Shown in pieces: positions 55,670 to 56,336 of a stretch of DNA of 64,000 nucleotides. Under the pieces are notes generated by a model. That model was given only the letters and a program-made list of their open reading frames with translations. It had not been told where the DNA came from and did no database searches. The DNA is from Escherichia phage phi92: sequence record NC_023693.1. One strand, 5' to 3'. The position numbers and the translations under genes are program-made. The stretch's first letter is position 1. Each line of letters starts with the position of its first letter.

Positions 55670-56101
55670 ATGATGATACTGACTATGTTAATAAACCTAC
55701 TGAAGAATAAATGGGTTAGGTATTTTGTTCTTATTATAGCACTGTTTGGTGGTTTGTATGTTGGTTTAAACAAATTACACGATGACGTGTATGCACAAGG
55801 CTACAACGCAGGTATTGCTAAACAAGAACAAATATTACAACAAAACCAAATTAAAGCAAAACAGCAGTTCGATATCTTACAAGCAAAAGCAGATTCAGAA
55901 AGATCTAAATTGAATGAAAAAATTCATTCATTAACGAAACAAAGAAATGATCTTCTTACACAACTGGATAAGAAGAGTAATAACATAACACAAGAGAGAA
56001 TAGATTATGCGAAAACATCTTCTGGCGCTATGTCTTGTTTTAGCCCTAATGATGACGGGTTGCGCATCATCAACAACAGCTTCCCAGCCTCTATTGATTG
56101 A
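55670..56101 (+). CDS. i-spanin-like protein (inner-membrane spanin, Rz-like)
   Basis: N-terminal TM segment VRYFVLIIALFGGLYVGL then Gln/Lys-rich coiled-coil; next gene embedded in its 3' end. Confidence 0.5.
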   Translation: MMILTMLINLLKNKWVRYFVLIIALFGGLYVGLNKLHDDVYAQGYNAGIAKQEQILQQNQIKAKQQFDILQAKADSERSKLNEKIHSLTKQRNDLLTQLDKKSNNITQERIDYAKTSSGAMSCFSPNDDGLRIINNSFPASID

Positions 56102-56336
56102 GCAGTGTAAAGCTGTAGCAACACAACAAATAAAAGCCCCTGATTCTGTCAGTATGGAAAAACCATCTACCCCTGTTTTATATACCCCTAATCAAATAAA
56201 GAAAGGAGTTACAAGATCAGAGGTAGTTGATAATCAAACTTTAAACAACGCTTTGTGGGAAAAAGATAGGATAAAACTTATCAGTTTACAAAACTATATT
56301 AAAACATTACAAAGTGAAGGAATAATTTCTAATTAG
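56007..56336 (+). CDS. o-spanin-like lipoprotein (Rz1-like)
   Basis: signal peptide with lipobox LMMTGC; starts inside the i-spanin ORF in another frame. Confidence 0.55.
   Translation: MRKHLLALCLVLALMMTGCASSTTASQPLLIEQCKAVATQQIKAPDSVSMEKPSTPVLYTPNQIKKGVTRSEVVDNQTLNNALWEKDRIKLISLQNYIKTLQSEGIISN

What the first reader, a model, noticed from the sequence alone, without database searches (positions are those of the whole stretch)
55670..56336. Embedded spanin gene pair far from the endolysin
A membrane-anchored coiled-coil protein (55670-56101) contains within its 3' part, in another frame, a lipoprotein ORF with lipobox LMMTGC (56007-56336), the classic Rz/Rz1-type architecture. The T4-type lysozyme gene is about 32 kb away on the opposite strand (23600-24100) and no holin is obvious beside either, so the lysis functions are dispersed.
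Basis: partly seen in the sequence, partly recalled or inferred. Interest (0 to 1): 0.3.

Follow-up and report, generated by a model that had tools for sequence, protein, structure and literature searches.

The report
Known overlapped spanin pair of phage phi92
These two overlapping genes are the spanin pair, the proteins a phage uses to break the bacterial outer membrane at the end of infection; the same pair is already listed at the same coordinates in a published spanin catalogue for coliphage phi92, so the finding is correct but ordinary.

Summary
Both ORFs exist as described. ORF 55670-56101 (+, 143 aa) has one N-terminal transmembrane helix followed by a long predicted helix. ORF 56007-56336 (+, 109 aa, +1 frame) has a lipoprotein signal, MRKHLLALCLVLALMMTG|C.

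The pair is a two-component spanin. It matches PHROG 4297 (E 3e-40) and PHROG 1267 (E 2e-20), and the two genes occur together in the same number of phage records (134 each). Conservation by codon position shows that both frames are under selection in the overlap.

Only 95 of the 330 nt of the lipoprotein gene lie inside the first gene. This is the "overlapped" architecture (phage P2 LysB/LysC type), not the lambda Rz/Rz1 type.

The pair is already published. Kongari et al. 2018 (SpaninDB) list phi92 (FR775895.2) with identical protein sequences, class "ovl", a 95-nt overlap and coordinates 55669-56101 / 56006-56336. The window is therefore almost certainly phi92 bases 1-64000.

The dispersed-lysis claim also holds. 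The T4-type lysozyme gene is at 23600-24100 (-), about 31.6 kb away, and no membrane protein flanks either locus. This too is published for the genus and mirrors T4.

One small point is of practical use: several GenBank relatives start the o-spanin at MMTGC, which cuts off its signal peptide.

Novelty: already known. Interest: low.

The parts
55670..56101 (+). i-spanin gene (phi92 gp118), 143 aa. Predicted type II inner-membrane protein: short cytoplasmic N-terminus, one transmembrane helix, long periplasmic helix, and a conserved C-terminal segment YAKTxSGxMSCFxPNDxGLxIINxSFP that includes Cys123. In-frame ATGs at 55673 and 55685 are alternative starts; all lie upstream of the transmembrane helix.
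   Evidence: PHROG 4297 'Rz-like spanin' E 3e-40. Hydropathy. AlphaFold2 helix 14-114. Alignment with relatives. Identical to the phi92 i-spanin in SpaninDB.
55712..55768 (+). Codons 15-33 of the i-spanin: the predicted transmembrane helix WVRYFVLIIALFGGLYVGL
   Evidence: Kyte-Doolittle 19-residue mean 1.84. Positive residues K12, K14 and R17 lie on the N-terminal side. A hydrophobic segment is kept at this position in all aligned relatives.
56007..56336 (+). o-spanin gene, 109 aa, in the +1 frame relative to the i-spanin. The mature lipoprotein is 91 aa: a disordered linker (about residues 20-38, with Cys34) followed by a confidently predicted helical C-terminal domain (40-109, with helix 70-103).
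   Evidence: PHROG 1267 'Rz-like spanin' E 2e-20. Lipobox pattern match. AlphaFold2 model. Invariant G18, C19, N80, N81, L94 and Q95 across phi92-, phAPEC8-, rV5- and 7-11-type o-spanins. [quoted passage not shown]
56007..56063 (+). Lipoprotein signal peptide (residues 1-18, MRKHLLALCLVLALMMTG) plus the Cys19 codon that would be lipid-modified (56061-56063). Ala at +2 and Ser at +3 mean there is no inner-membrane retention signal.
   Evidence: Read directly from the sequence and matched to the pattern [LVIMFT][^REKD][GAS]C. SpaninDB lists the lipobox as MMTG. No dedicated SPase II predictor was available.
56007..56101 (+). 95-nt dual-coding overlap. It encodes i-spanin residues 113-143 and its stop codon in one frame, and o-spanin residues 1-31 plus the first two bases of codon 32 in the other.
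   Evidence: DNA identity to KP13-26 / phAPEC8 is 0.76 / 0.80 in the overlap, against 0.55 / 0.55 (i-spanin-only part) and 0.65 / 0.69 (o-spanin-only part). Third codon positions of the i frame, which are second positions of the o frame, are 81-84% identical here, against 39-45% in the i-spanin-only part. The only variant inside the overlap in three genus relatives, 56094 T>C, changes the i-spanin (I142T) but is silent in the o-spanin (Leu30).
56335..58429 (+). AGGAGG ribosome-binding site (56335-56340), which overlaps the o-spanin stop codon TAG (56334-56336), followed by the GTG-initiated terminase large subunit gene (56345-58429). The spanins are placed at the head of the late packaging and head-gene module.
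   Evidence: Sequence. PHROG 979 terminase large subunit E 3e-221 and Pfam Terminase_6N. The same order is seen in BME3, Antha, EmilieFrey, phAPEC8 and KP13-26.
23600..24100 (-). T4-type (GH24) endolysin, 166 aa, with no N-terminal signal or SAR (signal-anchor-release) domain. It is the peptidoglycan-degrading partner that must act before the spanins can.
   Evidence: Pfam PF00959 Phage_lysozyme E 5e-12. PHROG 7 endolysin E 2e-21. Annotated 'endolysin' in EmilieFrey. The N-terminal motif [25 protein letters not shown], when aligned with T4 lysozyme recalled from memory, keeps the Glu, Asp and Thr catalytic positions.

Best explanation
The two genes encode the two-component spanin of a phi92-type (Justusliebigvirus) coliphage, arranged in the overlapped gene architecture.

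Shown by sequence analysis here:
- The 143-aa protein has the signals of a type II inner-membrane protein with a long helical periplasmic stalk.
- The 109-aa protein has the signals of an outer-membrane lipoprotein: cleavage and lipidation at Cys19, with no Asp at +2.
- The first 31 codons of the lipoprotein gene (signal peptide plus the start of the linker) are written in the +1 frame over the last 31 codons of the i-spanin gene, and both frames are under purifying selection.
- The o-spanin stop codon overlaps the ribosome-binding site of the terminase large subunit gene, which implies late expression.

Inferred by analogy with lambda Rz/Rz1 and T4 PseT.3/PseT.2:
- The C-terminal parts of the two proteins bind each other, so the complex spans the periplasm threaded through the peptidoglycan mesh.
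- The conserved periplasmic cysteines (i-spanin Cys123, o-spanin Cys34) form homotypic disulfide-linked dimers.
- A holin, still unidentified in this phage group, lets the cytoplasmic T4-type lysozyme (23600-24100) destroy the murein. The freed complexes then cluster, change conformation and fuse the inner and outer membranes, removing the last barrier to phage release.
For: - Family matches: PHROG 4297 and PHROG 1267, both 'Rz-like spanin'.
- Transmembrane helix, lipobox, reading frame and overlap geometry.
- The two proteins are each found in 134 phage records of Stephanstirmvirinae. The overlapped arrangement, transmembrane helix, lipobox and cysteines are retained in phAPEC8, KP13-26, FBKp34 and KP13-16, at 33-66% protein identity.
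- Dual-coding signature in the overlap.
- AlphaFold2: long helix 14-114 in the i-spanin; disordered linker plus a helical C-terminal domain in the o-spanin.
- Weak fold matches to named o-spanins in BFVD.
- Identical entry in SpaninDB: phi92, 'ovl', +1 frame, 95-nt overlap, one periplasmic Cys in each protein.
- Curated GenBank annotations call the pair i-spanin / o-spanin in EmilieFrey and BME3.
- A T4-type lysozyme is present in the genome.
Against: - No experiment on this family was found in the papers read, and none could be run here. Function rests on topology signals and analogy.
- There is no detectable sequence similarity to lambda Rz/Rz1 or P2 LysB/LysC.
- My crude single-register heptad test did not support a coiled coil: 8% of shuffles matched or beat residues 54-115, and 29% did so for 46-112. 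'Coiled coil' therefore rests on the published Pepcoil prediction and the AlphaFold2 helix.
- The i-spanin start has no Shine-Dalgarno sequence, and the o-spanin start has only a weak GAG.
- SpaninDB curators flagged the pair 'Too long?' (201 periplasmic residues in total).
- No holin has been identified, so the upstream part of the lysis pathway is unknown.
Confidence: 0.93

Rival explanations
1. The lipoprotein is an outer-membrane lipoprotein with another role, for example a Cor/Llp-type superinfection-exclusion protein that blocks a receptor, and the membrane-anchored helical protein is an unrelated envelope protein. On this reading the pair is not a lysis device.
For: The FBKp34 homologue of the lipoprotein gives a weak match to PHROG 1119 'Cor superinfection exclusion protein' (E 1e-4), confined to residues 1-34, that is the signal peptide. 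No lysis phenotype has been reported for this family in the papers read.
Against: - The Cor match covers only the signal peptide. The full-length matches are to spanin families.
- The strict pairing and frame overlap with a transmembrane helical protein, conserved down to about 33% identity, is the defining spanin signature and is not expected for exclusion lipoproteins.
- Translational linkage to the terminase gene points to late expression.
Confidence: 0.04
2. The reading frame beginning at 56007 is not translated from there. The real product begins at the internal ATG at 56049 or 56052 (MMTGC...), as annotated in several GenBank relatives. It would then lack a signal peptide, and the apparent lipobox would be accidental.
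For: BME3, EmilieFrey, Antha and KP13-26 annotate a 94-95 aa product starting at MMTGC or M(M/I)TGC. The Shine-Dalgarno sequence upstream of 56007 is weak (GAG).
Against: - o-frame second-codon positions in 56007-56101 are 81-84% conserved between genera, and the only variant inside the overlap in three genus relatives is silent in the o frame.
- Every diverged relative keeps a basic N-terminus, a hydrophobic core and a lipobox upstream of the Cys.
- tblastn identity runs from residue 1 in all Justusliebigvirus records.
- Kongari et al. report that wrong o-spanin starts are a common gene-caller artefact, with 64 such cases.
Confidence: 0.02
3. The second ORF is a chance open frame inside and beyond a real gene, and has no product.
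For: Short out-of-frame ORFs are common in AT-rich phage DNA; many are listed.
Against: The 330-nt ORF is conserved at 66% protein identity between genera, with third-position wobble in its non-overlapping part: identity at codon positions 1/2/3 is 0.76/0.78/0.42 against KP13-26. It fills the gap up to the terminase gene, and it matches a spanin PHROG at E 2e-20.
Confidence: 0.01

Closest known systems
phi92 spanin pair in SpaninDB (Kongari et al. 2018, BMC Bioinformatics 19:326; FR775895.2, Phi92_gp118 plus unannotated CDS 56007..56336)
   Same: Everything matches: both protein sequences are identical (143 and 109 aa), as are the coordinates (55669-56101 / 56006-56336 with zero-based starts), the +1 frame, the 95-nt overlap, the lipobox MMTG, and one periplasmic Cys in each protein.
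   Different: Nothing. This is the same object. The phi92 record itself was not in the searchable phage collection, so the identity of the window is inferred from the matching sequences and coordinates.
phAPEC8 gp121/gp120 (Phapecoctavirus), the only other member of the phi92 spanin family in SpaninDB
   Same: Overlapped architecture in the +1 frame, lying directly upstream of the terminase large subunit gene. Same lipobox (LMMTGC), the same conserved cysteines and the same C-terminal motifs. Identity is 48% for the i-spanin and 66% for the o-spanin.
   Different: The overlap is 110 nt. The i-spanin has a shorter N-terminus (130 aa). The o-spanin has a longer N-terminal region (114 aa).
rV5-type spanins (Vequintavirinae; SpaninDB family 'rv5', class 'separated')
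   Same: Same remote-homology families, PHROG 4297 and PHROG 1267. Pairwise BLASTP gives E 1e-5 for the i-spanins and E 5e-8 for the o-spanins. They share the o-spanin C-terminal motif NN-x8-KL-x2-LQ-x-Y/W-I/V-x2-L.
   Different: The genes abut with only a 4-nt overlap (class 'sep'). The i-spanin has no periplasmic Cys. Identity is 23-26%.
P2 LysB/LysC (prototype of the overlapped architecture)
   Same: Same gene geometry: the o-spanin starts out of frame (+1) inside the 3' part of the i-spanin gene and ends beyond it.
   Different: No significant sequence similarity: NCBIfam P2_Rz1/LysC scores 12 bits against a cut-off of 27. P2 keeps its spanins in a lysis cassette with the holin and endolysin (general knowledge; Fig. 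1b legend).
Lambda Rz/Rz1 (prototype of the embedded architecture)
   Same: The same predicted division of labour and topology: a type II inner-membrane protein with a helical periplasmic domain, plus an outer-membrane lipoprotein encoded in the +1 frame, with periplasmic cysteines.
   Different: - Rz1 lies entirely inside Rz, whereas here 71% of the o-spanin gene lies outside the i-spanin gene.
- Mature Rz1 is 40 aa, proline-rich (10 Pro) and unstructured. This mature o-spanin is 91 aa with 5 Pro and a confidently predicted helical domain.
- There is no Pfam Rz or Rz1 match.
T4 PseT.3/PseT.2 together with genes e and t
   Same: A large virulent myovirus whose spanin, endolysin (T4 lysozyme family) and holin genes are scattered rather than grouped in a cassette. 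Its o-spanin is larger than Rz1 and has a predicted C-terminal helix.
   Different: The T4 genes are of the separated class. The T4 i-spanin has no periplasmic Cys and the o-spanin has two. The T4 holin is known, whereas none is identified in phi92-type phages.

Membership tests
Two-component spanin (criteria of Summer et al. 2007 / Kongari et al. 2018) | The i-spanin has a single N-terminal transmembrane domain, with the bulk of the protein periplasmic (type II topology). | tested here: met
   Hydropathy peak of 1.84 at residues 15-33, with K12, K14 and R17 on the N-terminal side. AlphaFold2 predicts a helix over 14-114. SpaninDB records a positive TMHMM result.
Two-component spanin (criteria of Summer et al. 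2007 / Kongari et al. 2018) | The o-spanin has an SPase II signal sequence with a lipobox and Cys, and no inner-membrane retention residue (Asp) at +2. | tested here: met
   MRKHLLALCLVLALMMTG|CAS matches the lipobox pattern, with Ala at +2. G18 and C19 are invariant in six diverged homologues. No LipoP or SignalP tool was available, so this is a pattern match only.
Two-component spanin (criteria of Summer et al. 2007 / Kongari et al. 2018) | The two genes are adjacent, overlapping or nested, with the o-spanin gene 3' of or within the i-spanin gene. | tested here: met
   95-nt overlap in the +1 frame. The arrangement is conserved in phAPEC8, KP13-26, FBKp34 and KP13-16.
Two-component spanin (criteria of Summer et al. 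2007 / Kongari et al. 2018) | At least one periplasmic cysteine is available for homotypic intermolecular disulfide bonds. | tested here: met
   i-spanin Cys123 and o-spanin Cys34 are present and conserved within Stephanstirmvirinae. Whether the disulfides actually form cannot be tested here.
Two-component spanin (criteria of Summer et al. 2007 / Kongari et al. 2018) | The periplasmic domain of the i-spanin is helical or coiled-coil. | tested here: inconclusive
   AlphaFold2 gives a confident continuous helix, and the published Pepcoil prediction places a coiled coil at residues 54-115. My single-register heptad test was not significant: 8% of shuffles matched or beat the observed value.
Two-component spanin (criteria of Summer et al. 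2007 / Kongari et al. 2018) | Function: required for outer-membrane disruption (spherical-cell arrest in Mg2+; complements lambda Rzam Rz1am). | not testable with these tools
   This needs genetics and microscopy. No such experiment on this family turned up in the papers read.
Embedded spanin architecture (lambda Rz/Rz1 type) | The o-spanin gene lies entirely within the i-spanin gene. | tested here: not met
   The o-spanin gene ends at 56336, which is 235 nt past the i-spanin stop at 56101. Only 29% of it is inside. SpaninDB classes the pair 'ovl'.
Overlapped spanin architecture (P2 LysB/LysC type) | The o-spanin gene starts out of frame inside the 3' part of the i-spanin gene and ends beyond it. 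| tested here: met
   Start at 56007 inside 55670-56101, +1 frame, end at 56336. The overlap is 0.22 of the i-spanin gene length according to SpaninDB Table S4.
Lambda Rz (Pfam Phage_lysis) and Rz1 sequence families; P2 LysC (NCBIfam NF038368) | A significant match to the family profile. | tested here: not met
   No Pfam spanin family appears at E <= 0.1 for either protein. NF038368 P2_Rz1 scores 12 bits against a cut-off of 27. BLASTP against the 933W Rz gives E 0.03, over the transmembrane region only.
PHROG 4297 / PHROG 1267 (rV5- and phi92-type 'Rz-like spanin' families) | A significant full-length match to the profile. | tested here: met
   E 3e-40 (residues 2-140 of 143) and E 2e-20 (residues 1-108 of 109). 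rV5-family spanins hit the same two PHROGs.

The most novel reading that the evidence does not exclude
The spanin pair itself is ordinary. The most novel reading the evidence leaves open concerns the rest of the lysis pathway of the phi92/rV5 group of phages, which may not follow the canonical scheme. No recognisable holin exists anywhere in the genome. The phage carries both a cytoplasmic T4-type lysozyme and a SleB-type hydrolase with a signal peptide. The spanins are coupled to the terminase gene rather than to any lysis cassette. The missing membrane-permeabilising function might then belong to a new holin family. One candidate is the 81-aa membrane protein embedded in the tail-fibre/baseplate module, which is conserved in 370 phage records and never annotated as a holin. 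A second, minor point is that phi92-type (95-nt overlap) and rV5-type (4-nt overlap) spanins are remote homologues, which would document a shift between the separated and overlapped architectures within one lineage.
Probability: 0.12. Interest if true: 0.35.

Novelty: already known. Interest (0 to 1): 0.06.

Why it matters
For biology it matters little. It confirms that a well-studied broad-host-range coliphage carries a standard outer-membrane disruption device, and that its lysis genes are scattered as in T4.

Its practical value is for annotation. The correct o-spanin start (56007) restores a full lipoprotein signal peptide. Several GenBank relatives (BME3, EmilieFrey, Antha, KP13-26) truncate it, and FBKp34 omits the gene altogether. 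This is the gene-caller bias against overlapping genes that Kongari et al. described.

The real open question nearby is not the spanins. It is the unidentified holin of the Stephanstirmvirinae and Vequintavirinae phages, some of which are being characterised as candidate therapeutic phages.

Tried and rejected
- **Fetching the phi92 record.** I tried NC_023693 and FR775895, but neither is in the collection. A 14-kb megablast found only relatives at 98-99% identity. The identity of the window was therefore established through the SpaninDB sequences and coordinates.
- **Solved structures.** A sequence search of the PDB with both proteins found nothing at E <= 1. Foldseek of the o-spanin model against the PDB gave nothing meaningful; the best hit had E 3.8.
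- **Coiled-coil test.** A crude single-register heptad test was not significant. I do not claim a coiled coil on my own evidence.
- **The upstream 57-aa ORF as a lysis factor.** The conserved DUF7230 ORF (55461-55634) lies directly upstream of the i-spanin in all five loci examined. I rejected a spanin-linked role as unsupported, because in GAP31 and in the T4-like phage VAC66 the ORF carrying the same motif is not next to spanins. The linkage looks like ordinary regional synteny.
- **Holin hunt.** I scanned the window and the full genome of relative EmilieFrey for small transmembrane proteins and searched the candidates against PHROGs and Pfam. None matches a holin family.
- **Cor-like exclusion protein.** The match covers the signal peptide only, so I rejected this reading.
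- **Large searches not run.** I did not run the protein database or metagenome searches. They could not change the verdict once an identical published entry had been found.
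Full report
**What is in the sequence**

- ORF 55670-56101 encodes 143 aa. Its most hydrophobic 19-residue stretch is residues 15-33 (WVRYFVLIIALFGGLYVGL, Kyte-Doolittle mean 1.84). Lys12, Lys14 and Arg17 precede it. The rest of the protein is polar and rich in Gln, Lys and Glu, with a single Cys at 123.
- ORF 56007-56336 encodes 109 aa in the +1 frame. It begins MRKHLLALCLVLALMMTG|CAS, a basic N-terminus, a hydrophobic core and a lipobox with Cys19. Ala at +2 means there is no Asp retention signal. A second periplasmic Cys sits at position 34.
- The two ORFs share 95 nt (56007-56101). That is 29% of the second gene, and the remaining 235 nt lie downstream of the first gene's stop codon.

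The title word "embedded" and the phrase "classic Rz/Rz1-type architecture" are not. In the standard classification (embedded, overlapped, separated) this is the overlapped class, whose prototype is phage P2 LysB/LysC.

**Where the window comes from**

The region is 98.5-99.4% identical to about 50 Justusliebigvirus (Stephanstirmvirinae) coliphages, including muut, alia, BME3 and EmilieFrey.

Supplementary Tables S1 and S4 of Kongari et al. 2018 (PMC6139136), the basis of SpaninDB, list phage phi92 (FR775895.2) as follows:

- Class "ovl", +1 frame, 95-nt overlap, coordinates 55669-56101 and 56006-56336.
- The i-spanin is Phi92_gp118.
- Both protein sequences are identical, residue for residue, to the window ORFs.
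- The lipobox is MMTG, each protein has one periplasmic Cys, and the curators added the remark "Too long?".

The window is thus almost certainly bases 1-64000 of phi92. The finding is already in the literature at the same coordinates.

**Evidence that the pair is a real spanin**

1. *Family matches.* The first protein matches PHROG 4297 (E 3e-40) and the second PHROG 1267 (E 2e-20). Both are labelled "Rz-like spanin" and both matches are full length.
2. *Co-occurrence.* tblastn finds each protein in 134 phage records, with closely matching organism and host tallies.
3. *Conserved anatomy.* I read the ORFs in four diverged relatives: phAPEC8, KP13-26, FBKp34 and KP13-16. All four keep an N-terminal transmembrane protein followed by a +1-frame lipoprotein gene that starts inside it. 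This holds at 33-48% identity for the i-spanin and 38-66% for the o-spanin. Invariant o-spanin positions include G18, C19, N80, N81, L94 and Q95. Within the subfamily, Cys123 of the i-spanin and Cys34 of the o-spanin are conserved.
4. *Dual-coding signature.* Against KP13-26 and phAPEC8, DNA identity is 0.55 in the i-spanin-only part and 0.65-0.69 in the o-spanin-only part, but 0.76-0.80 in the overlap. Third codon positions show the usual wobble outside the overlap (0.39-0.52). Inside it, i-frame third positions, which are o-frame second positions, are 0.81-0.84 identical. In three genus relatives compared (BME3, Antha, EmilieFrey), the only variant inside the overlap is 56094 T>C. It changes the i-spanin (I142T, two residues from its end) but is silent in the o-spanin (TTG to CTG, Leu30). 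Both frames are therefore translated, and the o frame is read from upstream of the lipobox.
5. *Structure prediction.* These models come from shallow alignments of 5-6 sequences. For the i-spanin, AlphaFold2 gives one continuous helix over residues 14-114 (pLDDT above 90 for 50-110) and a low-confidence C-terminal 30 residues. For the o-spanin, it gives a low-confidence linker after Cys19 (residues 20-38) and a confident helical domain over 40-109, with a 34-residue helix at 70-103. There is no solved-structure relative by sequence or fold. In BFVD, the best non-family matches are weak hits to proteins named o-spanin.

**Points that are weaker**

- My crude single-register heptad test was not significant. 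"Coiled coil" is supported only by the AlphaFold2 helix and by the published Pepcoil call for residues 54-115.
- No dedicated SPase II predictor was available, so the lipobox is a pattern match.
- Neither start codon has a strong Shine-Dalgarno sequence.
- No experiment on this spanin family turned up in the papers read.

**Relation to known families**

The proteins work like Rz/Rz1 but are not detectable sequence relatives. No Pfam spanin family matches at E <= 0.1. The NCBIfam P2 LysC model scores 12 bits against a cut-off of 27. BLASTP against a lambda-type Rz aligns only the transmembrane region (E 0.03).

The nearest outgroup is the rV5-type pair. It hits the same two PHROGs and aligns pairwise at E 1e-5 (i-spanins) and E 5e-8 (o-spanins). 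It also shares the o-spanin C-terminal motif NN..(D/E)R.KL..LQ.Y(I/V)..L. SpaninDB classes rV5 as "separated", with a 4-nt overlap. The phi92 and rV5 pairs therefore appear to be one remote-homology lineage with two gene architectures. This is a small observation. It fits the view of Kongari et al. that overlapped arrangements derive from separated ones. At 23-26% identity I would not lean on the exact alignment of the junction.

**Context and likely expression**

- A tRNA array of 15 genes (51625-54544) precedes the region.
- A terminator-like hairpin at 54936-54960 is followed by a weak promoter-like site at 54983-55011.
- Next come a 106-aa ORF, a 57-aa DUF7230 ORF, the two spanin genes and the terminase large subunit gene (56345-58429).
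- Another terminator-like hairpin lies at 58474-58495.
- The o-spanin stop codon (TAG, 56334-56336) overlaps the AGGAGG ribosome-binding site of the terminase gene.

The spanins thus sit at the head of the late packaging module. This argues for late expression, as expected for lysis proteins that accumulate harmlessly until the murein is destroyed. The promoter and terminator hits are consensus matches only: promoter-like sites were no more frequent than in shuffled sequence.

**The dispersed-lysis claim**

- The ORF at 23600-24100 (-) is a T4-lysozyme-family enzyme (Pfam PF00959, E 5e-12; PHROG 7) with no N-terminal hydrophobic segment.
- Its neighbours are a PhoH-like ATPase, a 58-aa soluble ORF and a glutaredoxin-like protein. 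None has a transmembrane domain.
- In EmilieFrey (Bas61), a genome annotated by the BASEL authors, the only lysis annotations are i-spanin, o-spanin and endolysin, the last about 31 kb from the spanins across the record ends. No holin is annotated.
- The BASEL authors say holins could not be identified in every case.
- Kongari et al. note the same scattering for T4.

**Mechanism**

*Shown here:* the topology signals, the dual coding and the conservation.

*Inferred from lambda Rz/Rz1 and T4 PseT.3/PseT.2:*

1. The i-spanin is anchored in the inner membrane. Its helical stalk of roughly 80 periplasmic residues would extend about 12 nm if fully helical.
2. Its conserved C-terminal segment, which is encoded in the overlap, meets the folded C-terminal domain of the o-spanin.
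3. The o-spanin hangs from the inner leaflet of the outer membrane on a linker of about 20 residues.
4. Cys123 and Cys34 make homotypic disulfide-linked dimers.
5. Once a still-unknown holin releases the lysozyme and the peptidoglycan mesh is gone, the complexes cluster and collapse. This fuses the two membranes.

One design point follows from the alignment. The overlap places the o-spanin signal peptide and linker, which tolerate sequence variation, over the most conserved part of the i-spanin.

**Verdict**

The pair is a real two-component spanin of the overlapped class. It is identical to the published phi92 entry. Novelty is "already known" and interest is low.

The useful by-products are the correction of the architecture class and evidence for the 56007 start. 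That start is mis-annotated in several GenBank relatives: the gene is truncated to MMTGC in BME3, EmilieFrey, Antha and KP13-26, and is absent in FBKp34. BFVD also holds two Phapecoctavirus homologues of only 94 and 71 aa.

Noticed in passing
window 56049-56055 (compare L001:3653, L003:380, L002:3649, L007:2883): Public annotations of the o-spanin in BME3, EmilieFrey, Antha and KP13-26 begin at the internal ATG (MMTGC...), which removes the signal peptide. FBKp34 annotates no o-spanin at all. The conservation pattern supports the upstream start at 56007.
   Followed up: yes
window 55461-55634 (+): A 57-aa, highly charged ORF with no transmembrane segment (Pfam DUF7230 E 9e-7; PHROG 15229) lies directly upstream of the i-spanin in all five Stephanstirmvirinae loci read. 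This holds even where tRNA genes separate the spanins from the terminase gene. Its N-terminal motif (M.N.VAKHD.N) recurs in 239 phage records, but in GAP31 and VAC66 it is not next to spanins. Its function is unknown.
   Followed up: partly
window 54936-55322 (+): A terminator-like hairpin (54936-54960) and a weak promoter-like site (54983-55011) are followed by a 106-aa ORF (55002-55322; KRGRGRP motif; PHROG 3330, function unknown). This may be the start of the transcription unit that carries the spanin and terminase genes. No small terminase subunit is annotated in this phage group, and this ORF is in the position where one might be expected.
   Followed up: no
window 3118-3297 (+) and 9474-9686 (+): Two small proteins with two predicted transmembrane helices each. 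The 59-aa one has no PHROG match. The 70-aa one matches PHROG 10205 'membrane protein'. Both lie in a region of small + strand ORFs. They are possible class II holin-like proteins, but neither matches any holin family.
   Followed up: partly
L003:24017-24262 (+) (EmilieFrey; outside the window): An 81-aa membrane protein (PHROG 1322) lies between tail-fibre and baseplate genes. It is conserved in 370 phage records, including rV5-like phages, and is always annotated 'membrane protein' or hypothetical. It is probably the 81-residue holin candidate mentioned in the BME3 paper, and its role is unproven.
   Followed up: partly
L003:48477-48986 (-) (EmilieFrey; outside the window): A second peptidoglycan hydrolase, SleB-like (Pfam Hydrolase_2, E 6.5e-20), has an N-terminal signal-peptide-like sequence (MSIKTFVAIALLSLTAFTFTPVVAQAEA). 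The phage may therefore export one murein hydrolase without needing a large-hole holin.
   Followed up: no
L003:27949-28290 (+) (EmilieFrey; outside the window): A 113-aa protein with an N-terminal transmembrane segment and a helical remainder lies inside the tail-fibre module. It matches PHROG 15210 'lipoprotein' and, weakly, PHROG 739 'Rz-like spanin' (E 5e-4). Its role is unknown.
   Followed up: no
window 51625-54544 (+): An array of 15 tRNA genes lies upstream of the spanin and terminase block. ARAGORN reports one of them (52508-52583) with an anomalous two-base anticodon. The corresponding gene is annotated tRNA-Lys in relatives.
   Followed up: no
window 55670-56336 compared with rV5-type spanins (SpaninDB entry 2_JES-2013): The phi92-type (95-nt overlap) and rV5-type (4-nt overlap, 'separated') spanin pairs fall in the same PHROGs and align pairwise at E 1e-5 and E 5e-8. 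One remote-homology lineage therefore appears to carry two gene architectures.
   Followed up: partly
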